Notes under the pieces: model-generated | Told to the model about the DNA's origin: nothing | The model's database searches: none | What the model saw: the letters and a program-made list of their open reading frames with translations, nothing else | Source: a virus | Length of the DNA: 64,000 nucleotides | Virus record (IMG/VR): IMGVR_UViG_3300015202_000004 | Coordinates: 129,980 to 193,979 of that record | Strand: one strand, 5' to 3' | Made by a program: the position numbers and the translations under genes | Shown: positions 1,636 through 57,309 of the stretch, in pieces | Layout: every line of letters begins with the position of its first letter | How positions within the stretch are numbered: the stretch's first letter is position 1

Positions 1636-1884
1636 CTAAAAACTATGGCGTTCTTTCAAGTCCATAATATCTAAATGATTACGAACGTTCTTAGGCGTCA
1701 TAATATTAGCGTGACCTTCAAAAGATTCTATGGTGATGCCAGTATCTTCAACAGCCGTTTGAATTTTGCTTATGATAGCTGCATACCAAGCGCCCGTGCG
1801 AGGAACCATTTTCATTGCTTGAATTAGGTTAGCGATTTCGTATTCATTCAACTCGATGTGTATTTCCATAGCACATCCCTCCAT
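1636..1884 (-). CDS. hypothetical protein
   Basis: ORF with GGAGG SD before an internal ATG. Confidence 0.55.
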   Translation of the reverse strand: MEGCAMEIHIELNEYEIANLIQAMKMVPRTGAWYAAIISKIQTAVEDTGITIESFEGHANIMTPKNVRNHLDIMDLKERHSF

Positions 1885-2152
1885 AGTTTAAAGTTGTAAC
1901 ACTATAAAGTAGATGTTTATGATATAAAAATATCACATTAACGTTTTACTTTCAAGTTCAAAAATATCGTGATTAATTTAAATATTACTAACGGAAAGAA
2001 CAAAATTGACAAAAGCAGATGCCAAACCACTCTTGGATGTGTAACTAAATTATATAAAGATTCATGAACCCTAATGTCACCACTTGACGATGTAGTCAAC
2101 TCAAGTGGACCAAATGCAAAACTTAAAAAAATCAAACAAATTAAAATCGCAA

Positions 2153-2677
2153 TCATTTCATAACCTTTACACAATCGCGAACTTCCATAAGAACTTCGCC
2201 GAGCCAATTTGTACCACGCCAGTTTGCCGGATTATTTACACGGGGGTCATTTACCGCTAATTTAACACCCCAAATAGCATCGTAAGGCGAAGCTTCAACA
2301 AGGTGCTTATCTCCCGTAGAGATAATGTATTTACGTAGTTTTTCATCAGATGTGAATTTTGATAAATTAACATTGAAAACAATATCTTTGGCAACATTGT
2401 TCCACGTTTCAACATCAAAGTTCTTTACAGTTTTACCCAAAGCTTTTTGCCCCGAAGGGTTCGATTCGCGCATGATTTTATCAAACGCTTCCTCGTCATT
2501 AAAGAATAAAGCTTTACCAGCCATCATTCCTTGTTCAGCACAATTTAGTGCCAATTGTTTTCCAAATAACTCAGCACTAAAATTACCAGTCTGATACCAC
2601 TGGGAAAACACGCCTCCGTAGAAGAAGACGTATTTTTCAGTGATTCTTTGGGAATCCAATATTAACCCTTCACGCAA
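2153..2677 (-). CDS. NADAR family protein (YbiA-like)
   Basis: FSQW...AEQGMMAGKA..F.D...KALGK.V...KF...LVEASPYDAIWG...G.NWLGEVLMEVR. Confidence 0.9.
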   Translation of the reverse strand: MREGLILDSQRITEKYVFFYGGVFSQWYQTGNFSAELFGKQLALNCAEQGMMAGKALFFNDEEAFDKIMRESNPSGQKALGKTVKNFDVETWNNVAKDIVFNVNLSKFTSDEKLRKYIISTGDKHLVEASPYDAIWGVKLAVNDPRVNNPANWRGTNWLGEVLMEVRDCVKVMK

Positions 2678-4788
2678 AGAACTTGTTTGATTTGATGCAC
2701 CACTTCAACTAAATCAGATTGAGCCGCCATGACAGCATCAATGTCTTTATAAGCTTGTGGGATTTCGTCTATCACCCCAATATCTTTTCTGCACTCAACA
2801 CCCTTGGTTGCAGCGATTTGGTCTTCAACCGTGAACTGTTTCTTTGCTTGTGTACGCGACATTACTCGTCCTGCCCCGTGGGAACAAGACATGTAAGATT
2901 CAGCGTTTCCAAGACCGCGAACAATGTACGATTTAGTACCCATCGAACCAGGGATAATTCCCATTTCCCCTCGGCCAGCGCGAACCGCACCCTTACGGCT
3001 TACATACATTTCTTCACCGAAGTGAATTTCTGTAGTAACGTAGTTGTGGTGACAGTTGATGACTTCGGTGTCAATGGTGAACGTTGGAAGCTTAAGGCGG
3101 TCCTCACGCATTACTGAAAGCAAACGCTTAAGCATGACTTCACGGTTTGTGGCCGCATAATCTTGTGCCCAAGTCATTGCCTTGACGTAATCCTCGAACG
3201 AATCCGTACCTTCCGATAAGAACGCAAGGTCCTTATCCGGCAAAACTTCGCCACGCTTTTCAAGTTCCGCTTTCGCTTCGTTGATAAAGTATGAACCGAT
3301 TTTGTTACCGATTCCACGCGAACCCGAGTGCAGCATTAACCATACGCGATTTTCTCTGTCGAGACAGAGTTCGATGAAGTGGTTGCCGCCACCAAGGGTA
3401 GCAAGCTGATTGACCGGGTGCTTGTCGTTGACGATTTTTGGATATTTCTCGTCTAACCATTTGAACCCAGCATCAAGGTGCTTCCAGCCTGTTTCAACAA
3501 CAGACGGGACACGAGTATGCATGTTGAATCCAACTGGAACCGTGCGCTCAAAAGCTTCACGGAGAGGTTTTAAATCAGATGGCAAATCTTCGGCCTTCAA
3601 AGAAGTACGAACTGCCGCCATGCCACAATTACCTGTCATAGCAATGTTCCCACCTCGTCGCATTACCCAGTATCCAGATGGCAAAGTAAAACAATAAGCC
3701 CTACCGTCAATCGGAACTACTTCTGTTATTTCTGACTTTGGCACACCAGCCATACCCACCATGGTATTATTATGAGCAAAAACACGATAATCAATGGCAC
3801 CACTGTAATGTTCATCTTGCCGTAAAACCGCTCTATATCCAGATGCAGTAAAAGCATAATGAGCAAAATCAGCAGCTTCTTTAATCCGCGTAAAAAATAC
3901 ACGGTCTTTTATATTCCCGTCCCAATGAAAACATTCATCAGTGAAAATTTTTAATTGCGCTAAAGAAGCTTTCCAAAGCCATTCATATGTTTTTGTAACT
4001 TTTGGCGGTAGAAATCTGAAAGATACATCTTCGCCATAAATTTTTTCTGTATACTTAATTTTTGCGGCATCTAAAAGTTCTTTTGCTTTTTTTGATTTAC
4101 GGGCTTTACGTACCTTTACAACAGCATGATTTTGATGGTCAATATGACCATCTGCTAAAACCATTACCATAACACGCAAATTATCATCTGAGATTTCAAT
4201 TGAATTTGATAAAACTGGTGTAAAAGTAGTCATAAATTCAGCTTTATAACCTTGAACTAAATAGTCATGTGTCCTTTTAAATTGTTCAGCAGTTATAACT
4301 TTTTGAACACGAATCCGGTCGCGGCCAGAAATTTCCCAACACAAAATTGTATGGTCTGGCGATAAAACTTGGTTAATACCATGCTTAGTTTTAAAAGAAT
4401 ATAGTTTATCGTATTCTTTTTTAATATATTCTTTTGGTTTAACAAACTCACCTTGGCCTGTACTCGGGTCATATTGCATAACTGAATCACCGTCTTGATA
4501 TTCTGAAATAAATTTCCATCCATCTTCAGATAAAAATTCTGTTTCCGCATCAACGCAACCGATATCAACGCCAACGATGCTCGGAATTATAACATTCTTG
4601 GTTGCAATTACACTACCAACAGTTGAACCAATTCCGGCGTGTACGTCGGGCATGATTGCTACACCGTGGACGAATGGAAGCAACGCAACGTTTAAAACTT
4701 GCTTACGGGCAGATTCTTCGAAGACTACGCCTTCGACCCAAGCCTTAACAGGCTTACGCCCTGGCCCTTCAATTAATTCATAATTCAT
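2662..4788 (-). CDS. rtcB: RtcB RNA 3'-phosphate/5'-OH ligase, intein-interrupted
   Basis: MPDVHAG, GVDIG/CGM, LGGGNHFIE, HSGSRG, HHNY, RKGA, PGSMG, SHGAGR, DE.P.AYK motifs. Confidence 0.95.
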   Translation of the reverse strand: MNYELIEGPGRKPVKAWVEGVVFEESARKQVLNVALLPFVHGVAIMPDVHAGIGSTVGSVIATKNVIIPSIVGVDIGCVDAETEFLSEDGWKFISEYQDGDSVMQYDPSTGQGEFVKPKEYIKKEYDKLYSFKTKHGINQVLSPDHTILCWEISGRDRIRVQKVITAEQFKRTHDYLVQGYKAEFMTTFTPVLSNSIEISDDNLRVMVMVLADGHIDHQNHAVVKVRKARKSKKAKELLDAAKIKYTEKIYGEDVSFRFLPPKVTKTYEWLWKASLAQLKIFTDECFHWDGNIKDRVFFTRIKEAADFAHYAFTASGYRAVLRQDEHYSGAIDYRVFAHNNTMVGMAGVPKSEITEVVPIDGRAYCFTLPSGYWVMRRGGNIAMTGNCGMAAVRTSLKAEDLPSDLKPLREAFERTVPVGFNMHTRVPSVVETGWKHLDAGFKWLDEKYPKIVNDKHPVNQLATLGGGNHFIELCLDRENRVWLMLHSGSRGIGNKIGSYFINEAKAELEKRGEVLPDKDLAFLSEGTDSFEDYVKAMTWAQDYAATNREVMLKRLLSVMREDRLKLPTFTIDTEVINCHHNYVTTEIHFGEEMYVSRKGAVRAGRGEMGIIPGSMGTKSYIVRGLGNAESYMSCSHGAGRVMSRTQAKKQFTVEDQIAATKGVECRKDIGVIDEIPQAYKDIDAVMAAQSDLVEVVHQIKQVLCVKG
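3628..4557 (-). mobile_element. intein (310 aa) with LAGLIDADG-like endonuclease region
   Basis: Begins CVDAETEFLS, ends ...AMTGN followed by C+1; splits the conserved GVDIGCGM motif; internal VLADG; visibly more AT-rich than the exteins. Confidence 0.9.
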
Positions 4789-11419: not shown

Positions 11420-13156
11420 TTATCGGGTCAAAACCGGATACAATTCCGCAATTTTTTTGACCGCACTACGCGGGTCGCCTTCGTATGAAGCCATTAGGTC
11501 AAAGATTTTCTCCGACCAGCCACCGATTTGTGCTACACGAGATTCACGGTCAAAGTTTGACGTGTTACCGCCAGTTAGATTGATTTCGTATAGGTAAGGT
11601 GTAGTTTCGCCGTTGGTTGTGCCCTGAACCCACGTTGCATACTTCTTCCATAGCTCGTTCAAGGACTGGCCGTAACCGTAAGAATTGTAGCATTGTGTGT
11701 CCGTGAAATACATAACACGGTTGGTGACAATTCTGTTATTGATTAGATAATCAAGGATTGTCCACGCATTGGTTGACATACCAACCTTGCCAACAAGGTT
11801 GCCAATTGCATTTGCGGTATCAAGAATGTTTGCTGACGGGGTTACCGTATCAAACGTTGTACCGAATGCCGAAGCAATACCATCTTCAGATAGATGACTT
11901 GCCATTGCTGCCATTACAGTAGCAATTTCTTTCATCGTAACTGATGACTTGTCGTTTAGACGCGAGTCCATAGAACCCGAAACGTCTGCCGCGACAAGGG
12001 TACGACCTGTGAATTTTGGAATATTCGAAACCGAGTGGTTAAGAGCAATACTAAGCGCTTGACGTAGTAGAGCCTTTGAATCACCCTTTGCAGGCTGATT
12101 CCACTTCGCGAACATGTCGCGATTCGAGTCCGCATAACTGTAGTATCGTAACGCATACTCTTCGCCCTCGATTGCCTTCATTGCTGAAAGGAATCGGAAT
12201 GGAAGTTGCTTCGACTTCAATACTTCTTCTTTGCTCGTCAACTTCGTAACAACGTCATCCATTGAAATGTCGTTCTTCAAAAAGTTGTTCAAGTTACGAA
12301 GTACGGCCATGTAACCCATGTTAGGTAGTACATACGACCAAGTTTCCTCGGTTGAACCAAACTTCGATATAACAGTTTCCCACGTTGCGTTTGACTCGCG
12401 AACCAATTCCTTTGCTTTCGCATCGAACTTAGTCATCTTCATCAAGGCATCACGAGCCGCCGTCATTGGAAGCAATGACTTGAAAGCAAGGTTGGTCAAT
12501 GGGGCACGGTGACCCGATTCAACAATTACACCCTCTTCAGCAACGCCGCGAAGAATATAGTTGAATAGAGCAGCCTGAACCGCATCCTTCGGCTTTGGGT
12601 GAACCAAACGAAGAACGTCCTTTAGCTTGACCTTTTTGTTGTCCTGGTCGTACTTAACCATGCTGTACTCATTGAATTTGTTGAAAGCAATTTCAAGAGA
12701 CGAACGCAAATTCATTGGTAGCTTATGGTTGCCCTTATTGACATGTAGCCAATAAGCAACTGCTTCGGTGATTTCGTCTGGACGACCGAAAACCTTAGAA
12801 GCCATAAGAGTAACGTCAATAGGATATGCTGCGCTCTTCGATTTGTTCGCATGCATCGCACGGATGCCTTCTACGAATAGAATCATCGGGATGCTACGAA
12901 GGTGCATTTCATTACGCAAGTATGCAGCAAGTTGGAATACAAACGCCGGGTCCTGCTTCGCGATTTTGTTTACAAGCGTGACAATATTAGTGTATTCCGC
13001 GTTAGCAGATACATAAAACTTATCACCCGCTCCGCCGCCAAGTGACGTGGATGCAGTAACGTAAAGCGCTGTTTTGTCATCAAGCGTATAAGCGTTGCCG
13101 CCTGCAAGATTGACCGTGCGTGAGGTATCGACGGCGTTGGTATTAAACTTTGACAT
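11420..13156 (-). CDS. TROVE-domain RNA-binding protein (Ro60/Rsr family) with vWA domain
   Basis: NLAGGNAY, KFY, LAAYLRNEMHLRS, RPDE, LKDVLRLVHPKP, TWE, YMAVLRNLNN, QLPFRFLSA, vWA MIDAS DVSGSM...TD, GWSEKIF. Confidence 0.93.
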   Translation of the reverse strand: MSKFNTNAVDTSRTVNLAGGNAYTLDDKTALYVTASTSLGGGAGDKFYVSANAEYTNIVTLVNKIAKQDPAFVFQLAAYLRNEMHLRSIPMILFVEGIRAMHANKSKSAAYPIDVTLMASKVFGRPDEITEAVAYWLHVNKGNHKLPMNLRSSLEIAFNKFNEYSMVKYDQDNKKVKLKDVLRLVHPKPKDAVQAALFNYILRGVAEEGVIVESGHRAPLTNLAFKSLLPMTAARDALMKMTKFDAKAKELVRESNATWETVISKFGSTEETWSYVLPNMGYMAVLRNLNNFLKNDISMDDVVTKLTSKEEVLKSKQLPFRFLSAMKAIEGEEYALRYYSYADSNRDMFAKWNQPAKGDSKALLRQALSIALNHSVSNIPKFTGRTLVAADVSGSMDSRLNDKSSVTMKEIATVMAAMASHLSEDGIASAFGTTFDTVTPSANILDTANAIGNLVGKVGMSTNAWTILDYLINNRIVTNRVMYFTDTQCYNSYGYGQSLNELWKKYATWVQGTTNGETTPYLYEINLTGGNTSNFDRESRVAQIGGWSEKIFDLMASYEGDPRSAVKKIAELYPVLTR

Positions 13157-13214
13157 TTTATTTCTCTCTCTTCTTTCGTTCTTTCTAGTTCCAGCCTCTA
13201 GTGGGCAAGAATTT

Positions 13215-13244
13215 ATTATATAACAGTTTGTAGGTTCCTGTCAA
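13215..13244 (-). promoter_or_regulatory. sigma70-like promoter of the TROVE gene
   Basis: TTGACA...TATAAT on the minus strand, just downstream of the Y-RNA array terminator. Confidence 0.7.
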
Positions 13245-13254
13245 CCTTTTGGGC

Positions 13255-13284
13255 AAAATAAAAAGCCTGGTGTTTCACCAAGCT
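13255..13284 (-). terminator. intrinsic terminator closing the Y-RNA array
   Basis: AGCTTGGTG-AAA-CACCAGGCT followed by TTTTATTTTG. Confidence 0.75.
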
Positions 13285-13301
13285 CGAAACGTTAATGATT
13301 C

Positions 13302-13453
13302 AATAAAATCTTAAGAGAAGGAGCGAATACAGTATTTTTCGGTGCTACCCTTACACTACATCGGCACATTTGGAACCGACGCCGGGAATCGAACCACGGA
13401 CTCGTTCTTGGATATAGAAGTAACTGGAATTCTATGCAACTTAAGACTTTATT
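13302..13453 (-). ncRNA. Y RNA-like ncRNA 1 (YrlA-type tRNA mimic)
   Basis: Terminal stem; GTTGCA..CAGTTACTTC; T-arm CCGTGGTTCGATTCCCGG, closed acceptor CGTCGGT/GCCGATG, D-arm GTGTAAGGGTAGCAC; 3' ACTG..GC..CTTCTC. Confidence 0.85.
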
Positions 13454-13465
13454 CAATTTTTAAAG

Positions 13466-13611
13466 TTTCGAGAGTAAAAGCGATAACAGTTTAAGTATTT
13501 CTACTGTTAGTTAGTCTTTCGATTAACCCTGCTAGGGTTTGAACCTAGCTCGCAAGTCCTTTTGAAGGATTTGTTTCATTCGAAGTAACTGTTTATCTGT
13601 GCAACTCGAAA
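13466..13611 (-). ncRNA. Y RNA-like ncRNA 2 (divergent tRNA module)
   Basis: TTTCGAG/CTCGAAA stem; GTTGCACAG..CAGTTACTTC; T-arm CTAGGTTCAAACCCTAG; degenerate acceptor and D arm. Confidence 0.75.
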
Positions 13612-13622
13612 TTATTTTTATA

Positions 13623-13754
13623 GACTAAGGAGAAGAAGCAATCTCAGAGATTTTACGTGCTACCACTACACTACGTATCCGAGGATACGCCGGGATTCGA
13701 ACCCGGCCTGGTCTTGTTATATAAGAAGTAACTGAAATTTGTGCAACCTTAGTT
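13623..13754 (-). ncRNA. Y RNA-like ncRNA 3 (YrlA-type tRNA mimic)
   Basis: ACTAAGG/CCTTAGT stem; T-arm CCGGGTTCGAATCCCGG, acceptor CGTATCC/GGATACG, D-arm GTGTAGTGGTAGCAC. Confidence 0.88.
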
Positions 13755-13763
13755 GATTTTTTA

Positions 13764-13909
13764 GTTTAGTGAGAAGAAGCGCTTACGGTCTTTTTGAGAC
13801 TCCTGCTCTACCACTGAGCTATTCAGGCATATGTTGCCCGAAGCGGGATTCGAACACCGCGACCATGAGTGTGTTAATGAAGTATCCGATAAACTGTGCA
13901 ACACCAAAC
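13764..13909 (-). ncRNA. Y RNA-like ncRNA 4 (YrlA-type tRNA mimic)
   Basis: GTTTGGTG/CACTAAAC stem; T-arm GCGGTGTTCGAATCCCGC, acceptor TTCGGGC/GCCTGAA, D-arm GCTCAGTGGTAGAGC. Confidence 0.88.
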
Positions 13910-13933
13910 GTGTTTTTAAACTTTTCCAAAGAA

Positions 13934-14000
13934 CTTGGGAGAAGAAGGCGCGGGCGGAGTTTTTCTTAACATGAAGTATCCGAACGCTGTGCAACCCAAG
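13934..14000 (-). ncRNA. minimal Y RNA-like ncRNA 5 (conserved stem only)
   Basis: CTTGGG/CCCAAG stem with the same GTTGCACAG..CGGATACTTC..GCCTTCTTCTC motifs, but no tRNA module. Confidence 0.75.
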
Positions 14001-14106
14001 GACTTTGTTTAGTTATACATTTTATTCTAGTACAAAGCGCTGAGTTTGCCAACGCTTTTGTAAAGGATTAGCAAACTTTGTTTATTCGCTTGCTTAACTT
14101 TTTCGT

Positions 14107-18068: not shown

Positions 18069-18513
18069 CCTTTCTTAAGGATATATGCAATTAAACCGAA
18101 AATATATTTATAAAATATGTAATTTTTTACACGTTTAATTATCTTATCGGATTAGCCACGTTTTTCTTTTTCTCTTCTTAGTCTAACAGACTCTTTGCCC
18201 GTCAAATAGCAATCTACACAGCTATTATTTAGGGGCAGATTCTTAGGCAGATTAACTAAAGCAGCCCTTTCTTCATCAGAAATGGGCCACTTTCCTCTAC
18301 CTTCGCAAATCGTACACTTATCCATAAAATTCTTCTTTCACTATAACATATTTAGGCAAATCAGTCAAATCCGTGGGGTTGCCCAGAACTCCATGATACC
18401 ATATTTTGTATAAGACGAATGTCAAAAAGCTAAAGTTATTTTGAATTTGTTCAACCCATGTTAGCTTTAAACAATAAATACCGTCTTTAATTTCGTACTC
18501 ACTCAAAGGCTTA

Positions 18514-19065: not shown

Positions 19066-19467
19066 TTTATTTTCCTTATACCCAAATTAAATAACATATC
19101 TCCACTTGAATCGCTCGCCTGGAGATATGTTATGAAATTTTGATTACGCTCTTTCGAGAACTGTTTCGAGAACTACGCGAGTAACCGTGACGCCAATTTT
19201 AGCGACCATACGCTCGTTTTCGGAAAGACGACGTTGTGGACGACCGATGCCAATCCACACTTCTGGCATGACCGAGAAGTTGTGTTCCCAGTGTTCCGTT
19301 GTGCTTAACAGAAACTCTAAGAAATCTCTTTGAATGTGATTCATAAAATTATATCCTCCTTCCTATGGAGTTAACAAACTTGATTTAACCAGTATAACAC
19401 ATATAATCGGGCAAGTCAAGTAATTAAAAAAGAGCTATGTATTTTATTACACAAGCTCTTTTCTTTT

Positions 19468-46646: not shown

Positions 46647-47705
46647 ATGGCTGACTGGAAAGTTATCGCGGATAAGATTGTTTCATTTCCCCACCCTGGT
46701 GCAGATAAGTTGATGCTCGGGAAGGTTGGCTCATTCCAAGTAGTTGTTGGCAAATCAAACGAATATCAAAATGATGACATTGTAATTTTTGCTCCCGAAA
46801 AATCAATTTTACCTGATGAAATCAAGGGTAACTATTGCAACACCGATACGGGTTTGTCGTATCTAAGTGGACCCGACCATAACCGTGTAAAACGTGTCCG
46901 TCTTCGGGGCGAATATTCCGAAGGCGTAACTCTTTCTCGCGAATGGGTTGTATCTAAATTAGGATTAAATTCAATCAATGACATTCCATTGAACGAAGAC
47001 CTATCCGAAAAATTAGATATCAAAAAATTCGAGCCACCTATCCCATTTAACATGGCTGGACAACTTGAACGTATCGAAGGTATCTCTTTCCAGCGTCAGC
47101 ATGACGTTGAGCAGTTCCGTTTGTATAATTCGGAGTTGGTCGAAGGCGAAGATGTAATCGTGACAGAAAAAGTTCACGGTTCACAATTTGTTACTATTCG
47201 TAACGTCGAAGGCAAATGGTACGTTACCTCAAAAGGCATTGGCAAAGACGGTTTAGCCATTGTAGAATCTGAAGGGAACCTATACTGGCAGGCTCTTAAA
47301 AACTCTAGTCTTATGGACCTGGACATTTTTACCAAAGATACGGTCAACGAATATCAAATTTTTGGTGAAGTAATCCCTTGTCAAAAGGGATATTCTTACG
47401 GTCAAACCAAAGCGACCGTTAAAGTTTTTCGGTTTTTAGTAAATGGTCAAGACTATACTTTTGGTGAAGCGTCAATTTTTCTTGGTAAAGAAAACATGGT
47501 CCCGGTGCTTTACGAAGGACCTTACTCTGTTGACAAGATGGTTGAATTATCTAAAGGAATGGAAACCCTTTCTGGCAAGCAAGCCCATATTCGCGAAGGC
47601 GTTGTAGTTGCACCAGCAGTTCCACGTCAAAGCAAAGAGGGTTTTATGTTACTTTTGAAGGTAATAAACCCACGTTATAAGGACTCGGAAGAATCATTTT
47701 CGTAG
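46647..47705 (+). CDS. RNA ligase, Rnl2/DRB0094 family with N-terminal OB fold
   Basis: HPGADKL, RLRGEYSEG, TEKVHG, FGEV, VPVLY.GP, REGVVV, KVIN..Y. Confidence 0.9.
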   Translation: MADWKVIADKIVSFPHPGADKLMLGKVGSFQVVVGKSNEYQNDDIVIFAPEKSILPDEIKGNYCNTDTGLSYLSGPDHNRVKRVRLRGEYSEGVTLSREWVVSKLGLNSINDIPLNEDLSEKLDIKKFEPPIPFNMAGQLERIEGISFQRQHDVEQFRLYNSELVEGEDVIVTEKVHGSQFVTIRNVEGKWYVTSKGIGKDGLAIVESEGNLYWQALKNSSLMDLDIFTKDTVNEYQIFGEVIPCQKGYSYGQTKATVKVFRFLVNGQDYTFGEASIFLGKENMVPVLYEGPYSVDKMVELSKGMETLSGKQAHIREGVVVAPAVPRQSKEGFMLLLKVINPRYKDSEESFS

Positions 47706-48899
47706 TTAAAAAACCACCTTGCATTTAGTTGCGGGTGGTTTTTAATTACCTTGACTTTTGACCCAATGATATGGTAATATAATTAAATGAACGAGCGTAA
47801 GAAAAATCTAATCGACAAGCTAGAAATATGCCTCCTTTCAGTCGAAAATACTATTTTTAATAATAAACTTTCGATGCACAAGAAGATGGATGAAGATATT
47901 TTAAAGATTTGTAAAGCAACTTTACAAATTAACGAAAACATTTATACGCAAGTAAACTCTTTCATTGCGAATTTAAGTGACGACATTAATTCCGACTACG
48001 ATTTACTAGAACGCAATGTTGATAACATGGTTGAATCAGCCATTTCACAAGAAGGTGTTTCGCGCCGTTTCGTTCAAAAACTCTACCTCGAAGAAGGAAA
48101 AAATGGCTAAAACTGTTGCACCGTGCGTTGGTCCAAGCAAGTGTTCATGTAAAGATACTGTAAACTGTAAATTCGAAGAAGGCAAAAATACCATGTTATG
48201 CCCTGGCGATGTTAAGCACGGAGTAATGCTTCGTATGGTAACAGCAACGATTGACGGCTTAACAGTGGAAACGTACTCTTGCATGCAAAAAAAATGCGAT
48301 AGAGAGACGATTGTCTACTCGGGCGGGAAAGACTTGAACTTCAAAATCAGAAACCATTATGGCGTGAAATGATAGCATATTTAATTTTGCTTGTGAAGTC
48401 TGCGAGAGCTTCCATTGCTATTAACAAAGGGGAATGGGCAAAGGCCAGCCGAATTCTCGGATACGAAATTGGGCCAAGCATTCTACCAACAGGACAGGAA
48501 TAATAATGCAGGATTTATGTACGGACCCAACCCATTCAACCACTAGAGCTTTTATGGAACAACTAGGAATTTCAAGATTGTTAGTTTGTGCAGATTGCGG
48601 TAAAAAAGTAGACCGTAAAGACCCAAAGTGGGAATATACTTGCGACCAATGCAAGTGCAGTGCCAAGGCGCACGGCGAGACAATTTATACATTGTGTCAA
48701 CAGTGTAAAACATGTGGGTTCTACGTAGGTAAGTTCAGCGAAGGCTAATGTTATATCTAAATTTGATGGATATACTATTCCATCAACGATTCTCGGATGT
48801 TCTGCTGGCGTCGGAACAAAGGAAGTCACAGGTATAGTTGGCAATCAGCGATTGAAGTTGCTTTACAAAGAGTTACCAAGTAAAATTTATAAAGAAAGT

Positions 48900-49150
48900 A
48901 AAAAAAGACTACCGTTAAGTAGTCTTTTTTCATGACCTGCCTATCTTATTTACAGCAATAAGCTCCCAGTCATACGTTGTACCCCGCAACAGCTTTCTCG
49001 GAAGGCTAATCCGATTGCCGTAACACTGTGCCGAAGAAGTTTAGGGGATACTCTGTAAAAGCCTATCCCTATTCCGCGCCCCTCTCCATGGATGACGGCC
49101 TTCTACCGCCCAACAGTTTCCCGCACTTCAACGAGGGTTGGCCTTGACGT
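48900..49150 (-). ncRNA. orphan structured ncRNA A (about 250 nt)
   Basis: TTGACA-N17-TAGATT promoter (49157-49185); several hairpins; terminator at 48900-48930; no credible ORF. Confidence 0.6.
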
Positions 49151-49206
49151 TCCATTAATCTACCATAAGAATTGACTTGTGTCAAGCCTTGTGATATAAT
49201 AAATTT

Positions 49207-49425
49207 ATGAAAGTTCTCGGCAAAATTTTTAGTAGTATCTGCACCCTATTCTTTTCATTTCTAACAAATGCTGCCATTTCTGCCGCACAGTCTTCTTATA
49301 AGCATGGTCTTCATCAAGTGCGTACTGAGTTTTATCTAATCGCGGCAGGATTAAGCGCATTGTTCCTCTTTATGTCTATCGCAACTTTCTTTCTAAACAG
49401 TGTTGACAAACAAGTCAAAGTGTAG
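49207..49425 (+). CDS. small membrane protein
   Basis: Two hydrophobic segments; leaderless after TTGACT-N17-TATAAT. Confidence 0.55.
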   Translation: MKVLGKIFSSICTLFFSFLTNAAISAAQSSYKHGLHQVRTEFYLIAAGLSALFLFMSIATFFLNSVDKQVKV

Positions 49426-49436
49426 TACAATAAATG

Positions 49437-49752
49437 AGTTGGAAGTATCGAGCTTCCTTCATGGGTATGGCTGAATCCAAATAATGCTAAGGCTGGTTTG
49501 GTAAAGCGATATAATAATCTACAAGCAACTTAGCCCAACGGACAAGTGTCAGCGGGAAGTTAGTTGTTCCCTTCATTGTAAGAAGGGGAGGATAGCGTGA
49601 CAACGAAGGTAACTTTGTGGGTAACGTGGGTAAACAAAACCTGTTATAGACCAAGTAGGAAAGACGTTCTTGTTGACTCTTAGCCCGAAAGTAAAGGTAG
49701 ACAATCCTTTTATCCGCTTAAAACTCCCAAGTAGAAATACAAGGGAGTTTTT
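49437..49752 (+). ncRNA. orphan structured ncRNA B (about 315 nt)
   Basis: TTGACA-N17-TACAAT promoter; hairpins; terminator AAAACTCCC/GGGAGTTTT; no sense ORF. Confidence 0.65.
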
Positions 49753-49842
49753 TGTTTTTCCACAGCTTATTGTGGAAAACTTGTGCATAAAAACTTTTCC
49801 TCAAACCCATTGACTTTCTACTCGAAATACGCTATACTAATC

Positions 49843-50155
49843 GAGTCAGTAATGACAGGTTCGTCCGAAACGAGAACCTTGCCTTCCTGGGAATAAGTGT
49901 GAGACTTTCACAGTCAATAGACATGTACGTCCAGATGGAAAAAGTAGCAAACCCAACTCGCGAAGTTCGGACTGTCGTGAGAGGTATGGATAACACCTAT
50001 ACGTTGCTGGCTCTAGGCTTATATAACAAGGTTTTGAAAAGAACCGCCTAACCAGAACTAAAACAATCCGTCCAGTTGGTAGAGTTGGGACTCGTGAAAA
50101 GATAAACTACCGCAAATAACCCTTGATAGCGCAATCTATCAGGGGTTATTTGTTT
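49843..50155 (+). ncRNA. orphan structured ncRNA C (about 310 nt)
   Basis: TTGACT-N17-TATACT promoter; long-range stems and GNRA loops; terminator CAAATAACCTTGATAG/CTATCAGGGGTTATTTG. Confidence 0.65.
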
Positions 50156-50194
50156 CCCTTGACGTTTCCAACGTTTTATGGTAATATATAACGA

Positions 50195-50422
50195 ATGAGT
50201 AAGATTTTCGAGGTGACGATACACGAGTTACAATGTCCAAAATGCAAAGGTGTCGGCAAGCGACCAAAGAATGTAACGTCTGGCGGTTTAATTATTTTAC
50301 CAGATTGTAAACTGTGCAACGGCCTTGGGCATGTAGATAAAAAACGTATAAATAAATTTGAACGTAATCAAAGGAACAAATTCGGCAACCTTATTAAATT
50401 GTGGAAGGCAGCATTCAAGTGA
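50195..50422 (+). CDS. DnaJ-type zinc-finger small protein
   Basis: CPKCKGVG...CKLCNGLG. Confidence 0.6.
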   Translation: MSKIFEVTIHELQCPKCKGVGKRPKNVTSGGLIILPDCKLCNGLGHVDKKRINKFERNQRNKFGNLIKLWKAAFK

Positions 50423-50733
50423 ATTTTAATCTATCAGTTATGGACCGTGTTCATGGTGATTTTTCGCATGACTGGGATGCCAATGACCCTGTTCAAGTTT
50501 CCAATGCCCGTGAAATGTTTAATAATCTTAAAAAATTAGGCTACATGGTTTATGAAACTAAGAAGCTTGCTAAGGGTGGCGGCGTAACACATGAAGCCAT
50601 TCACAATTTTGATGCCCTGTGTAGTTCATACGTCTATCAAGAGCCAAAACCTGAACAAGGCGAAGGATTTTTAAAGAAAGTTGCAAATGTGGCGCGTCAA
50701 TTGACGGCGCACCCACCTGTCGCAGGCGGTTAA
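50401..50733 (+). CDS. small protein ending in Gly-Gly
   Basis: VMD..GD....WD..DP.QV..AR..F..L...GY...PPVAGG. Confidence 0.6.
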   Translation: MEGSIQVNFNLSVMDRVHGDFSHDWDANDPVQVSNAREMFNNLKKLGYMVYETKKLAKGGGVTHEAIHNFDALCSSYVYQEPKPEQGEGFLKKVANVARQLTAHPPVAGG

Positions 50734-52044
50734 ATGGTTGCATTATACCAAGCGCATATCGAAAAAGTAGCAGAATTTTTAAATTGTAAATTAGATTTAA
50801 AGCCGGGTCAACGTGGTATGATGTTTGTGGAATATGAACCGCCCACGATTCAAGGCCCTGTTATTGATGAATTTCCTGGTGGCGTTTTTCAATCGGCTCA
50901 AATCAAATATATCACGGTGTTGCATGAACTTGGTCATGTATTCCATGGGCATACCCAAGGCCGACCGCCTTTCGAGAATAAAACCTATTATTTTGATAAT
51001 GGGGTTCTTAAAAGCGAGGCTGAAGCATGGGATTATGCCATGCAAAATTGCATTGACGAATTTGAGCCTAGTACACTTCGGTTTATGCGCCAGTGTTTTA
51101 GTTCATATATTAAATCGGCAAAACAACGCGGCAATCGAAAAGGTCCAATAGATGACCCTGGTCGTGATTTTGTTGAATTTATTTATGACAAGCCTACTCC
51201 TTACGTTGTTTCCGTCTATGAAAAAATGGGTGGAGATAAGCTTGACGTTTTACTTTATACCCATGATGAAGACATAGAATGCAACCACGACCATAACGAC
51301 ATGGTTCTAGCAGCGAAGTATCAAGGGCGTAAGAAAGTATTTCGACGCACAATTCTTTCATATAGCTTTCCGTTGAAAGAAGATGGTAGTCGCGAGGCAG
51401 ACTGGATGGCGCCTTTTGAAGCGGGGCACCTTGCAACACAAGAAGAATTAGCCGAGGTGCGTAAGCAAGATGTTATCAAATATGTTCCTTTGCTTCTCAA
51501 AGAAAGAAAAGGGCGTAAATTACTACGCAAAAATATTGATGACAAGCAATGGGAAGAATACCTGAGAACAGGCTATTTTCACGTTAATTATAACGGTAAA
51601 CGCTATTTGATTTATGGTTACTACGGCGTCCAAGAAATGGATAAATTCGAACGTAGAGTCGTTTCTTATTGCTTACACGGGAAATCGCTTGATTTGCCAC
51701 AATCAGATGTTTTGTTGATTCAAAAATTAATGATTGAGACACAATTTGAAGAATTTGAAAAGCAAGCCCATATAACACATCACATTCATCGCGAAAAAGT
51801 TGTAACTTTTGACCCTTCGGCACATGTTAGTCTTTTGGGGGAAATTAAAAATATCCAGTTAAAAAACTACGAAAATTTGGTAAGAGCAGAGCAAGAATTC
51901 GATGAGCATGAAACTCGGGAACAAAAACTACTCGCAACATGGTCAGAAGCTTTTATAGAGAACAACGTCACCGATGAAGAAGAACAAGTTGTTCTTCCAA
52001 ATTCTATTGCCACTAATAAATTTGTCAAATACAGAGGAGAATAA
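50734..52044 (+). CDS. HExxH-domain multidomain protein
   Basis: VLHELGH...EAEAW.YA; C-terminal QWEEY...GYF.V...YCLH....LP.SDVLL.QKL.IE. Confidence 0.65.
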   Translation: MVALYQAHIEKVAEFLNCKLDLKPGQRGMMFVEYEPPTIQGPVIDEFPGGVFQSAQIKYITVLHELGHVFHGHTQGRPPFENKTYYFDNGVLKSEAEAWDYAMQNCIDEFEPSTLRFMRQCFSSYIKSAKQRGNRKGPIDDPGRDFVEFIYDKPTPYVVSVYEKMGGDKLDVLLYTHDEDIECNHDHNDMVLAAKYQGRKKVFRRTILSYSFPLKEDGSREADWMAPFEAGHLATQEELAEVRKQDVIKYVPLLLKERKGRKLLRKNIDDKQWEEYLRTGYFHVNYNGKRYLIYGYYGVQEMDKFERRVVSYCLHGKSLDLPQSDVLLIQKLMIETQFEEFEKQAHITHHIHREKVVTFDPSAHVSLLGEIKNIQLKNYENLVRAEQEFDEHETREQKLLATWSEAFIENNVTDEEEQVVLPNSIATNKFVKYRGE

Positions 52045-52473
52045 ATATGACATGCACACAATGCGACGGCCACAAAATTATCCGAACAGTAGTTCCTGCG
52101 CGAGCAGCAGGCTTTTTAGATGGAGTATGCGCCCGTTGCAATGGTACGGGAATGGAGCCTGATGGCATTAAAAGCTTGCCTACTCTCAACATTGAGCAGT
52201 TACGTCCTCACATTGGCGAACTCAATTGGATTCTTAAAGATTATGGCATTTCAATCGAAGCGACAGTCGATGATAACACGGGCGAAGTTGAAATGATTGA
52301 CAATATGCCAAATATTCGCATTGGATTTCCTCACCGTTGGGCCGGAAGCATCGTTTAGGTATTGACAAAAGTTCTTTTGATTATCTATTGACATGTAATC
52401 AAATACCTGTTATACTTGGTAAGTAAATAACACTATGGCTCATTTGAAGCCAGCACCCACTAGGAAATAAAAA

Positions 52474-53001
52474 TTGAGTACCAGCGCAATTGCAGAGTTA
52501 GAGCCCGAAACAATGCTCGATAATACTGCTCCTGTCGAAGTAGCAGTAGCCCCAGTCAGCGAAGAAGTAGTAGTAAAACGTTCCAAAGGTCGTCCAAATA
52601 TTCATCCGTTTGCAGGTCGCACGTATCTTCTTAAGAACGAGCTTAAGCTTGCTATGCAAGACAAAGAAGCCTTCGTTTCACTGATGAAAGAAACCTATCC
52701 GGTTAGCGATGAACGCAAGAAAGCACTTGGCACGGTTGTTAATGCGCCAAGCGAATTGTCTTTCACAATTCATGGTCCCATTCGCAATGTAATTGAACAA
52801 TTGCATAAGTTGCGCGGAATCTATGGCGACAAAGCCAAGATTAACATTTCCAAAGAACGTATGGTCGCACCGACCAGCGCCTTGTACTTGAAGCCCATTC
52901 AAGAAGTCATTGGTGAACGCAAAGGTAAATCAGTGTACAAACGTATTTTTGAAGAATATCGTTCAGACACTATTTACGGCTACGTCGTTGTTGCCATCTG
53001 A
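52474..53001 (+). CDS. hypothetical protein
   Basis: 175-aa ORF with AGGA SD and upstream promoters. Confidence 0.6.
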   Translation: MSTSAIAELEPETMLDNTAPVEVAVAPVSEEVVVKRSKGRPNIHPFAGRTYLLKNELKLAMQDKEAFVSLMKETYPVSDERKKALGTVVNAPSELSFTIHGPIRNVIEQLHKLRGIYGDKAKINISKERMVAPTSALYLKPIQEVIGERKGKSVYKRIFEEYRSDTIYGYVVVAI

Positions 53002-55088: not shown

Positions 55089-57309
55089 TAAAGATTTCTC
55101 CTTTCTTGCCAAAACTCAACCCCATCTTATTATATTAGTACATGGCTGTCAACTTGACAAAATTATGAATATGTGCATAGCATTTTATATTACTTGAACC
55201 CTAATTGAAAGTCGTTATCAGGTGTGGGTCATGAAGCCTTCTTCGTCTTACAGGGCATTTTTTGAGCGTAAGCCAGGGCCTGTGAATAATGTGTATAAGA
55301 TTTTTGTCGCAGTATATTGACTTTGAATTTATCAAAGGGTAATATAGGGGTATCACTAATTGCCGCCCAAGGAGGCCGGATAGATGAACTCAGTTCGCCC
55401 AGTGTTTTCCATCACGTCTCACCTGAACGGAAAAATATACGAACTAATTCAGACGGACGCCAACAGTGGTCAGGGTAAACAGGTTCTACAAATAGCCACG
55501 AATGATGAAAAATACTTTCAGGCGCAAATTCCTGGGCGATTTACAGAATTCGTCATTGACCAGTCAAACCCTAGCCAGACCTACAAAGAGGCGGTTATGG
55601 AACTTTGTCAAGCCGTCGCTAAGGGAATAGAAATAAACGCCCTGGACGCGGCGCAGACACAATGGAATAATGGCGAACAACGAACTACGAACGGGCTTCT
55701 TTCCCATAGCAATAGCCGAAGTAGTCCGTCTTCCTCAAATAATAATCAGTTAGAAGTAAGGCAACTTGTCACTTGAGCCCTGCGTAAGCTGATTTTAAGA
55801 GCCCCAAGCAATTGGGGCTCTTTTTTATTGCTTGACAGGCAGGGCAATAAGTGATATAATAAAAATCATGAGCGTATATTCAAAAGTAATTTCAGAAGCA
55901 ACAAGCGTGAAGAACGTTCACGAGCTTGAGGAGATTGAAGAAATGATTCGAGGAATGTTTTCTACTACCTTGGACCATTTCACCAAAGCTGAATTGACGC
56001 GCATGGCTATTGAAGTGAATAGCATTCGCCTTTCGCCCGAATATCAAGAAGAAATTTCAGTTGCATAATGAACGAAAAGGAAGTGCGGGAAGCCAATCGG
56101 CTACGACGCAGCCTTAATAAGCAGAAGCACTTTAAGTGCCCGTTGTGCTTCCATGGGAAGCCGGGTCACGCAGGGAAAACTTGTATTGCTCCCGTTGAAA
56201 GCGAAAAATGTGGTTGCTTAGGTATTGACAAACGCTCATAGTTATGCTATATTATATACATGCTGCCAGATAAATATCCGGTATTTACTTTTAAAAAGTC
56301 AAATTCAACCAATCCACTTGGTTTCCGTTGGCTTCTTCAGCGTGAATATCTCTATGTAAACAACAGCCGAACATATTGGCATGTTTCGTTTTATGATAAT
56401 GTTGGCGAATCAGAAAGAGAATATGAAATAAATGCTATTAGCCGACGTTCATTATATCGTTCACTTGATGTGGCAAAGCAACACTTGATTATTGACTATT
56501 TAAAATACTACTGTCCAACAATCTTAAAAGAATTAGAAAACGAGGGGTTTGTGCCCCTGCCGTTCGAACATGATGAAATCGGCAAAGCAATCTCATAAAC
56601 AAATACCAATAGGTATTGACAAACGTCAAGGAGTATGGTAATATAAAAGCATGTCAAGATTCAATCGTCGTCCGACCCGTCGCTTTTCTAGACTCCTAGA
56701 TGGAATCGGAGCAGCCCTTATTACACTGGGAGCCCTTGCTCTCGGAATGCTTCCAGCAGTTGTCTATCTAGTCATTGGAGCCATTCTTTTTGGCTACAAC
56801 ATGTGGGCATACTTCGGTCTTCTTCTTCCTTGGTATTTGAATGCAGTTGGCGGCGTTATCGCCCCGTTGAACTTCGTGTTCGCATTCATTGCTTACGTCA
56901 TAATTAATTTCGCCCACCATGCCGCACCAATTATTCACTAATCACTAAATCAAAAGGAAAACAATATGCTTACACCAAATCAGGTTAATACCCATTTTAA
57001 CCTTGCTCAGGTAATCCTTGGCCTTACCGTGGTCCTTCTGTTCGTCGGACTGTATTTGAACAGCAACCTCATTATAGACTTGGCCCTTGGAATCAACATT
57101 TTCGTCGGTCTGCTCTTTCTTGTGTCAATTAATGCGTCAAATATTAAATTCCAATTTGAATTGATGCAGACGATTATGAAACAATCCAAGGAACACGCTT
57201 TGACAACGACTAACGCAATTTCAATAAAATAATTATTCACCTAGTTGGTAAAAAATAATACAAAAAAACAGCTTGACAATCCAAAAAAATGTAGTATAGT
57301 AGATGGTGA

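What the first reader, a model, noticed from the sequence alone, without database searches (positions are those of the whole stretch)
49403..49752. Orphan ncRNA B, about 315 nt, possibly related to large phage RNAs
A near-consensus promoter, purine-rich linkers, hairpins (GGAAG/CTTCC, CCCTTC/GAAGGG), a strong terminator and no sense ORF. Segments such as TTTGTGGGTAAC and AATAATCT recall ROOL/GOLLD-class large phage ncRNAs. That resemblance is from memory and unverified, and this RNA is much shorter than those.
Basis: partly seen in the sequence, partly recalled or inferred. Interest (0 to 1): 0.7.

Follow-up and report, generated by a model that had tools for sequence, protein, structure and literature searches.

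The report
Conserved knotted RNA of glacier phage
An uncultured large phage from glacier ice carries a stand-alone gene for a roughly 300-base RNA with no sizeable reading frame; its predicted many-branched, knotted fold is kept by matching base changes in a distant relative, it fits no catalogued RNA family (it is not ROOL or GOLLD), and it likely acts as a stable scaffold or decoy for RNA-handling proteins.

Summary
The unit is real. It has a TTGACA-17-TACAAT promoter (49403-49431), about 283 nt without a contained sense ORF, and a terminator hairpin (49720-49751), in a 194-kb phage with 46 tRNAs, tmRNA, Ro60, RtcB and an RNA ligase. Contigs from four ice metatranscriptome runs (one sample) cover it as a separate piece, three starting at 49447-49448. 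One homologue was found, in a syntenic phage whose proteins are mostly 30-65% identical. It has its own promoter and terminator, 45% identity, and lies beside a homologue of the neighbouring RNA C. Folded independently, 40 of 74 confident pairs of the homologue recur in B (null mean 8.5, 0 of 250 reach it). A 7-bp pseudoknot carries two compensatory changes (null 2 of 2000). The ROOL/GOLLD link is not supported: the ROOL model finds a true ROOL (130 bits) but nothing in either phage, GOLLD gives nothing at B, and the two recalled words are absent from the homologue. raiA, RNase P and group I models also fail. Verdict: a new, rare family of orphan structured phage RNA; function untested, most likely a trans-acting scaffold or decoy. 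Limits: two sequences, one RNA sample, no strand data.

The parts
49403..49431 (+). sigma-70-type promoter (TTGACA-17-TACAAT); predicted start about 49437-49438
   Evidence: the homologue has TTGACA-17-TATAAT at the same distance from the RNA
49437..49719 (+). body of RNA B, about 283 nt, up to the terminator
   Evidence: RNA-library contigs span 49447-49731 in total, present in 4 of 4 runs of one sample; homologue of 291 nt, 125 of 278 aligned letters identical; strand inferred from promoter, terminator and conserved fold
49437..49445 (+). conserved 5' word GTTG(G/A)AAG; its first 5 nt may pair with 49674-49678 (tentative second pseudoknot PK2)
   Evidence: pairs possible in both copies with one-sided changes only; weak energy, -1.3 and -2.7 kcal/mol
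49463..49715 (+). P1, long-range closing helix 49463-49467 with 49711-49715, enclosing the multi-way junction
   Evidence: 5 of 5 pairs in both copies, 1 double and 2 single changes; pair probability 0.16-0.43 in B and 0.5-0.62 in the homologue
49470..49507 (+). P2 hairpin: two stems around an A-rich internal loop, 13-nt apical loop 49483-49495
   Evidence: probability 0.84-0.98 in each copy folded alone; 6 of 8 pairs changed on both sides
49486..49684 (+). PK1 pseudoknot (or kissing contact): loop bases 49486-49492 with 49678-49684
   Evidence: longest stem shared on a sequence-only alignment: 7 bp, 6 Watson-Crick in both copies, 2 compensatory changes; null 26 of 600 anywhere, 2 of 2000 for this loop
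49527..49561 (+). P3 hairpin capped by an AAGU loop within the conserved word ACGG(A/G)CAAGTG (49538-49548)
   Evidence: probability 0.98-1.0 in the homologue but 0 in B's unknotted ensemble, where a rival helix set wins; found in register by the homologue-only models; variant C49536T keeps the pair as U-G, as in the homologue
49569..49587 (+).
   Evidence: probability 1.0 in B and 0.91-0.95 in the homologue; 5 of 6 pairs changed on both sides
49595..49627 (+). P5 hairpin with GNRA loop (GUAA here, GUGA in the homologue)
   Evidence: upper stem probability 0.91-1.0 in both copies; DNA variant G49605A turns G-U into A-U, the homologue's pair (one low-depth contig)
49628..49642 (+). P6, variable hairpin
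   Evidence: probability about 0.6 in B; register in the homologue uncertain
49652..49689 (+). conserved junction words CAAGTAGG(A/G)AA (from 49652), ACTCTT (49676-49681) and CCGAA (49685-49689); weak P7
   Evidence: identical in both copies; unpaired columns 61 of 111 identical, paired columns 45 of 107
49693..49710 (+). P8 hairpin
   Evidence: probability 0.6-0.88 in B and 0.96-1.0 in the homologue; 3 of 5 pairs changed on both sides
49720..49759 (+). intrinsic terminator hairpin capped by GUA-GAAA-UAC, then T run
   Evidence: probability 0.95-1.0 in both copies; same 10-nt cap in the homologue's terminator
49810..50155 (+). neighbouring unit C (promoter 49810-49838, RNA about 49845-50155); a different sequence, kept next to B in the relative
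   Evidence: RNA contigs 49853-50122 in 4 of 4 runs; homologue at nhmmer E 5.7e-8; no similarity to B

Best explanation
Window 49437-49755 is a stand-alone phage gene whose likely product is a non-coding RNA of about 285-315 nt, predicted to fold into a multi-way junction closed by a long-range helix and locked by a pseudoknot, and it likely works in trans as a stable scaffold or decoy that binds a protein of the RNA-processing or translation machinery during infection. Shown: promoter, terminator, lack of a contained ORF, a syntenic homologue, compensatory changes in the helices, and separate contigs in RNA libraries. Inferred: transcription from this promoter and the strand (contigs give neither); that the RNA is abundant and stable; that the conserved unpaired words form a tertiary core and binding surface while the helices serve as struts. 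Untested: any partner or effect. Confidence that it is a real conserved structured ncRNA is about 0.9; in the scaffold or decoy mechanism about 0.45.
For: (1) Homologue B2 in phage record G003: own TTGACA-17-TATAAT promoter, 291 nt, own terminator. It lies next to a C homologue, and a homologue of the 175-aa ORF lies about 2.8 kb downstream on the same strand in both phages. (2) Test not fitted to a hand alignment: 40 of 74 pairs that B2 forms alone at p>=0.8 have a counterpart in B folded alone (tolerance 4 nt); null mean 8.5, max 33, 0 of 250; at tolerance 2 nt, 29 against 4.3. (3) PK1 has two compensatory changes. (4) A model of B2's sequence with hand-picked helices finds B as the only non-self hit in 67 kb, 22.6 bits, E 6.6e-6; on that fitted alignment 23 of 54 pairs change on both sides. 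(5) Both natural variants listed inside B keep a pair and match B2's pair type. (6) RNA libraries: all 10 contigs laid on 47000-52500 lie inside units A, B or C. B contigs start at 49447, 49447, 49448 and 49472 and end at 49690-49731, whereas DNA contigs bridge the B-C gap (X7 49510-49867, X13 49610-49861). (7) For action in trans: the terminator forms at p>=0.95 in both copies and the downstream genes differ. (8) For a protein-binding role: unpaired positions are more conserved than paired ones (55% against 42%), antisense matches in the phage genome are not in excess, and the phage carries a large RNA-handling kit.
Against: Only two distinct sequences, so covariation has no depth. Local sequence similarity of B to B2 is marginal (6 of 300 shuffles reach it). 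A model with B2's automatically computed structure found B only weakly (9 bits, rank 2 of 59). A simple count of shared stems with compensatory changes was not significant (38 of 300). In B the conserved nested model is 10.5 kcal/mol above the minimum-energy fold (-67.7 against -78.2); PK1 recovers only about 7. P3 and P7 have zero probability in B's unknotted ensemble. All RNA runs are one sample of one study, were picked with this stretch, give no strand or level, and may hold DNA. No partner protein is suggested by gene context: the RNA ligase gene 1.7 kb away is not near B2 in the relative.
Confidence: 0.45

Rival explanations
1. It works like ROOL, GOLLD or OLE without being related to them: copies of the RNA assemble into an RNA-only oligomer through GNRA loops, A-minor contacts and a kissing form of PK1.
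For: Phage with a large tRNA set. GNRA loops in P5 and in the terminator cap of both copies. PK1 covariation cannot tell an intramolecular from an intermolecular contact. Such assemblies are described for ROOL, GOLLD and OLE (PMC12286853).
Against: Half the length of ROOL (average 581 nt). No self-complementary 6-mer in B. B lies about 40 kb from the nearest tRNA gene in this genome.
Confidence: 0.17
2. It is an undescribed ribozyme that acts on other RNAs, for example in maturation or repair of the phage's tRNAs or Y-like RNAs, with the conserved words around the pseudoknot forming the active site.
For: Conserved unpaired words cluster near PK1 and the possible PK2. The phage encodes 46 tRNAs, tmRNA, RtcB, a CCA-adding enzyme and an RNA ligase.
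Against: RNase P type A model: no match in 3 of 3 records, control rings above cut-off in 8 of 14. Group I model: no match at B. No Rfam ribozyme at E<=10. Single RNA contigs run through most of the body (up to 49447-49731), which does not suggest efficient self-cleavage.
Confidence: 0.12
3. It is a base-pairing regulator or a guide RNA for a nuclease, or half of a two-piece RNA together with C.
For: Stand-alone small RNA gene; B and C stay adjacent in both phages although their orientation differs.
Against: Antisense exact matches in the phage genome do not exceed chance (20 against 25 expected at 11 nt). Shared B-C duplexes are not beyond the null (4 stems of 6 bp; 11 of 100 permutations reach that). 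No Cas, IscB, TnpB or reverse transcriptase family among the ORFs scanned (107, 29, 17; genome 87% complete; short ORFs mostly not scanned). Host targets could not be tested because the host is unknown.
Confidence: 0.12
4. It is a cis-acting leader (riboswitch or attenuator) for what lies downstream.
For: It ends in a terminator. In the relative a 228-aa ORF follows directly, and that copy holds a second AAAAACTCT that could offer an alternative pairing.
Against: Here the next element is RNA C with its own promoter. Downstream genes are unrelated. The terminator forms at p>=0.95 in both copies and no antiterminator is conserved in position (by inspection).
Confidence: 0.05
5. It is a highly diverged, shortened member of ROOL, GOLLD or raiA.
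For: The ROOL consensus holds AAuAAuCC. raiA also has a hairpin with an A-rich internal loop whose apical loop makes a 6-bp pseudoknot (PMC12968392).
Against: No model match; no similarity to a real ROOL (283 of 300 shuffles score as well); the recalled words are not conserved; topology differs from raiA.
Confidence: 0.04
6. It is non-functional spacer DNA, or a gene for a small antisense peptide.
For: Fold z-score without the terminator is only -1.97; antisense ORFs of 55 and 71 aa overlap; the strand is not measured.
Against: Conserved fold with compensatory changes at 45% identity; no matching peptide in the homologue's frames; + strand promoter and terminator in both copies.
Confidence: 0.05

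Closest known systems
ROOL RNA (Rfam RF03087) and GOLLD RNA (RF02032)
   Same: Phage-encoded, non-coding, multi-junction fold with pseudoknot(s), genome rich in tRNAs, function unknown (PMC5737381 passages; PMC12286853 part 1 and passages).
   Different: B is about 285-315 nt against an average of 581 nt (ROOL) and often over 800 nt (GOLLD); no model or sequence match; not beside tRNA genes in this genome; oligomerisation untested.
raiA motif RNA (RF03072)
   Same: Mid-sized trans-acting orphan RNA; hairpin with an A-rich asymmetric internal loop whose apical loop forms a 6-bp pseudoknot in a compact core (PMC12968392 parts 1 and 3; PMC10861870 passages).
   Different: raiA is bacterial, about 200 nt, closed by a 5'-3' P1, with the PK1 partner between P5 and P6. 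In B the partner lies about 190 nt downstream after five hairpins and the 5' 26 nt lie outside the closing helix. No model match in 3 of 3 records (no control above cut-off).
Abundant intergenic lncRNAs of Staphylococcus phage K (lnc001, lnc002)
   Same: Highly transcribed orphan non-coding RNAs of a large tailed phage (PMC9241854 passages).
   Different: Those are 635 and 1154 nt and flank tRNA genes; no blastn similarity of B to any of 50,697 phage records beyond 22-37 nt chance hits.
Bacterial Y RNAs (YrlA type) bound by Ro60
   Same: This phage encodes a TROVE/Ro60 protein.
   Different: The tRNA-like repeats that look like Y RNAs lie directly upstream of Ro60, about 35 kb from B; B has no tRNA-like module.

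Membership tests
ROOL (RF03087) | match to the covariance model | tested here: not met
   0 matches at E<=10 in G000, G003, G004; positive control pMP118 scored 130.4 bits in the same call
ROOL (RF03087) | length about 580 nt with six junctions and three pseudoknots | tested here: not met
   283 nt to the terminator, one junction, one supported and one tentative pseudoknot
ROOL (RF03087) | recalled words are conserved motif elements of B | tested here: not met
   absent from the B homologue and from the real ROOL tested
ROOL / GOLLD | RNA-only multimeric cage | not testable with these tools
   needs mass photometry or cryo-EM
ROOL / GOLLD | often located near tRNA islands | tested here: inconclusive
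   about 40 kb from the nearest tRNA here; in the relative a tRNA-Ala lies about 0.95 kb from B2, beyond C2
GOLLD (RF02032) | match to the covariance model (conserved 3' domain) | tested here: not met
   best 9.3 bits at C1:98516 in G000 and 5.8 bits in G004, none at B or B2; cut-off 150; no positive control above cut-off was available
raiA (RF03072) | match to the covariance model | tested here: not met
   0 of 3 records at E<=10; controls rang only below cut-off; not in the E-value scans
raiA (RF03072) | 5'-3' closing P1 and PK1 partner between P5 and P6 | tested here: not met
   B's topology differs
RNase P RNA type A (RF00010) | match to the covariance model | tested here: not met
   0 of 3 records; control above cut-off in 8 of 14 genomes
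Group I intron (RF00028) | catalytic core match and position inside a gene | tested here: not met
   one 8-bit hit far from B; control above cut-off in 2 of 14; B is a stand-alone unit
Any Rfam 15 family (4227) | score at gathering threshold or convincing E-value | tested here: not met
   window: only tRNAs; 48800-50250: 8 sub-threshold hits, best E 0.18, none over the body of B; homologue region: 2 hits at E 6.4 and 9.6
Orphan structured phage ncRNA (as a kind) | structure conserved by compensatory changes | tested here: met
   two sequences only
Orphan structured phage ncRNA (as a kind) | expressed as a discrete RNA | tested here: inconclusive
   separate contigs with coinciding starts in 4 runs of one sample; no strand, no level

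The most novel reading that the evidence does not exclude
B is a new double-pseudoknot RNA machine: a trans-acting ribozyme or RNA-only assembly that, with its co-conserved neighbour C, serves a phage RNA maturation and repair pathway (46 tRNAs, tmRNA, a Y-like RNA array with Ro60, RtcB, RNA ligase, CCA-adding enzyme). At under 300 nt it would be small enough for direct biochemistry and cryo-EM.
Probability: 0.15. Interest if true: 0.85.

Novelty: new variant of a known kind. Interest (0 to 1): 0.56.

Why it matters
What large structured phage RNAs do is an open question. B is a separate, compact family with a defined 5' end, terminator and testable fold, found with a second unrelated RNA that has stayed beside it while the phage proteins drifted to mostly 30-65% identity. 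Two natural sequences can be transcribed in vitro now for probing, oligomer tests and cryo-EM. Interest is tempered because the family is rare (two sequences), the host is unknown, and other notes of this scan describe several comparable orphan phage RNAs.

Tried and rejected
Homologue searches that found nothing new. blastn of B in 50,697 phage records: 6 short chance hits. The B2-C2 region in phages: 44 records, one 27-nt chance match. A-B-C in 72,556 plasmids: 4 terminator-like hits. No paralogue in the own genome. Pattern scans: 21 loci, none homologous; 120 loci of about 310 estimated, scan cut short, none homologous by nhmmer (these were not re-scored with the covariance model); 4 loci, 1 being G003; metagenomes 76 loci, 2 scoring the same as B2 (one shown identical); 20 loci, 1 being G003; C pattern 4 loci, 1 being G003. 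The two-sequence model R3 found 0 in 99 loci, only B and B2 in 47 sources, 1 of 23 records, G003 itself (4 handles not held), and 0 of 151 genomes drawn around a MAG that holds a related tail-sheath contig (no positive control, and a bin does not show the host). Neighbour proteins (436 aa, RNA ligase) retrieved no viral loci. Closer relatives exist as proteins (tail sheath 50-79% identity, 27 hits) but their ncRNA regions could not be reached. RNA runs show no contigs over the ORFs of 47000-52500, including the 72-aa ORF inside the stretch used to pick the runs; lack of cover in contig data is not evidence, so the chance figures are not relied on. The minimum-energy fold of B (long helices 49540-49551 with 49597-49602 and 49669-49674) was set aside because it is not kept in register in B2. 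The hand-registered count (63 of 67 pairs in both copies, 29 double changes) and one search are fitted to the structure and are descriptive only. C's nested fold was not conserved beyond the null (4 of 28; 69 of 150). The protein atlas gave no usable hit for the syntenic 175-aa ORF. Literature searches returned no paper that appears from title and abstract to describe this RNA; subscription papers are missing from the library, and the candidate RNA lists in supplements (for example PMC8040213, seen as a listing only) were not checked.

Full report
Setting. The window is the last 64 kb of a 193,979-base linear virus record, 87% complete. It encodes a tail sheath, baseplate proteins, DNA polymerase, 46 tRNA genes, a tmRNA, a TROVE/Ro60 protein, RtcB, a tRNA nucleotidyltransferase and an RNA ligase. 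The runs that hold the stretch are ice and glacier metagenomes, and four DNA runs from four studies laid on it at 99% identity or better in 35 of 36 contigs. Around the finding lie three units without a contained ORF, each with a promoter-like site and a terminator-like hairpin: A (minus strand, about 49152 to 48895), B (the finding) and C (about 49845-50155), with a 72-aa ORF between A and B.

Observation. No sense ORF of 40 aa or more is contained; a 47-aa ORF crosses the terminator and two antisense ORFs overlap. B folds better than shuffles at z -3.12 with the terminator but only -1.97 without it. Rfam has no match at gathering level and only chance-level hits at E<=10, none over the body of B.

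RNA data. Four metatranscriptome runs, all one sample of one study, were laid on 47000-52500. All 10 contigs fall inside A, B or C. B is covered in 4 of 4 runs, with starts at 49447, 49447, 49448 and 49472 and ends at 49690-49731. C is covered in 4 of 4, with starts at 49853, 49853, 49854 and 49871, and an adapter directly before 49853 in one. A is covered in 2 of 4. DNA contigs from other samples bridge the B-C gap. The commonest starts lie 8-11 nt after the predicted start sites for both B and C, which fits the loss of 5' ends in standard cDNA library making (recalled knowledge). These contigs give no strand and no level, the runs were picked with this stretch, and DNA may be present, so this is a good hint of discrete RNAs and not proof.

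Finding a homologue. Direct searches failed. A tail-sheath alignment retrieved related virus records. One of them, G003, gave a short hit that proved to be a homologue of C (nhmmer E 5.7e-8) with a homologue of B on the opposite strand just beside it (E 6e-4). This B2 has its own TTGACA-17-TATAAT promoter, runs 291 nt and ends in a terminator with the same GUA-GAAA-UAC cap. G003 and G004 appear to be overlapping pieces of one phage that is syntenic with this one at mostly 30-65% protein identity. A homologue of the 175-aa ORF lies about 2.8 kb downstream of B and of B2 on the same strand. B and B2 share 125 of 278 aligned letters; on local alignment alone that is marginal (6 of 300 shuffles), so homology rests on position, layout, shared words and fold together. 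No third sequence was found in any scan.

Structure. Folded separately, B and B2 give hairpins P2, P4, P5 and P8 at matching places with probabilities mostly above 0.85, and a weaker closing helix P1. In a test that uses only a sequence alignment, 40 of B2's 74 confident pairs have a counterpart in B; with identical columns held and the rest of B permuted the mean is 8.5, the maximum 33, and 0 of 250 reach 40. The longest stem shared by both is not nested: the P2 loop (49486-49492) pairs with 49678-49684, 7 bp with two compensatory changes. A stem of that quality arises anywhere in 26 of 600 nulls and from this loop in 2 of 2000. A second pseudoknot from the 5' end to 49674-49678 is possible in both copies but weak. 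A covariance model of B2's sequence with its automatic fold found B only weakly (9 bits); with hand-picked helices it found B alone at 22.6 bits, E 6.6e-6, and 23 of 54 pairs change on both sides on that fitted alignment. P3 is certain in B2 but loses to a rival fold in B's unknotted ensemble; the conserved model costs 10.5 kcal/mol against the minimum, of which PK1 returns about 7. The two variants listed within B (C49536T in the RNA sample, G49605A in one DNA run) each keep a pair and match B2's pair. Unpaired columns are more conserved than paired ones (61 of 111 against 45 of 107).

How it likely works. A constitutive terminator, unrelated downstream genes and an own promoter point to an RNA acting in trans. 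Freely covarying helices with fixed junction words point to a shape-dependent function. No excess of antisense matches, no B-C duplex beyond chance and no guide-using nuclease or reverse transcriptase among the ORFs scanned argue against a pairing or guide role. I commit to a stable folded scaffold or decoy for a protein of the RNA-processing or translation machinery (0.45), ahead of an RNA-only oligomer (0.17), a new ribozyme (0.12), a pairing or guide RNA (0.12), a cis leader (0.05), non-function (0.05) and a remote ROOL, GOLLD or raiA member (0.04). None of these functions was tested.

Comparison with known families. The ROOL model scores a real ROOL at 130.4 bits and nothing in the three phage records. 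The B model finds nothing above 4.3 bits in that ROOL locus, and B is no closer to it than shuffles. GOLLD, raiA, RNase P and group I models give nothing at B (GOLLD and raiA lacked a control above cut-off). B may behave like these orphan RNAs but is not a member of them.

Papers seen: PMC12286853 part 1 of 9 and passages; PMC12968392 parts 1 and 3 of 6; passages of PMC10861870, PMC5737381 and PMC9241854; PMC4201824 and PMC8040213 as search listings only. No supplements were read; unlisted candidate RNAs there could include this family. Six searches showed no paper on it. The labels 'YrlA-type', 'GNRA' and 'sigma-70-type' for features seen by eye rest on my own knowledge. Earlier notes of this scan had no sequence look-alike but describe several comparable orphan phage RNAs, which I could not test.

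Verdict. Observation confirmed; a real, rare, structurally conserved phage ncRNA family outside Rfam; ROOL/GOLLD relationship not supported; function unknown to experiment. Interest 0.56.

Noticed in passing
window 49810-50155 (+), unit C; homologue L050:1343-1601 (+): Second orphan RNA, better conserved in sequence than B (135 of 262 letters; nhmmer E 5.7e-8), covered in 4 of 4 RNA runs. Invariant GUCCGA and UCGGAC could pair, as a pseudoknot from the 5' hairpin loop. Its nested fold was not conserved beyond the null. In the relative it runs about 150 nt longer before a terminator-like hairpin.
   Followed up: partly
window about 49152 to 48895 (-), unit A: Third ORF-free promoter-to-terminator unit; low-depth RNA contigs in 2 of 4 runs; folds no better than shuffles; no homologue found in G001, G003 or G004.
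   Followed up: partly
window about 13330-14010 (-), upstream of the TROVE/Ro60 gene 11420-13156: About six tandem units of roughly 110-120 nt, each with GTTGCA..TACTTC, most with a T-arm-like then a D-arm-like segment, and GCTTCTTCTC; looks like an array of permuted tRNA-like (YrlA-type) Y RNAs (by eye; label recalled). Not called by ARAGORN or Rfam.
   Followed up: no
window 49536: C reads T in all four RNA runs (one sample) but C in the two DNA runs covering it; probably a strain difference, editing not excluded.
   Followed up: partly
L050 about 1860-1925 (+): A short tRNA-like element (acceptor-like stem, T-arm, 3' CCA) behind its own promoter just after C2 in the related phage; not called by ARAGORN.
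   Followed up: no
L027:10071-10497 (-); G000 C1 about 103,100-103,500: Phage-encoded tmRNA, 68.1 bits, missed by ARAGORN.
   Followed up: no
G000 C1:129778-129853 (-), just before the window: tRNA with CTA anticodon (called tRNA-Pyl by ARAGORN), a possible amber suppressor.
   Followed up: no
window 2662-4788 (-): RtcB of 708 aa split into two matched stretches by an insert that hits families also seen in other intein-prone phage genes; likely an intein.
   Followed up: no
window 49732-49741, 13495-13504; L183:3258; L191:7556: The 10-mer GTAGAAATAC occurs only twice in this genome (B terminator and the Y-like array) and twice in the fetched related-phage records.
   Followed up: no
window 13157-13760, 18069-18513, 19066-19467, 55113-55383: Other gaps of 270-600 nt free of ORFs of 70 aa or more, not examined for RNA genes apart from the first.
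   Followed up: no
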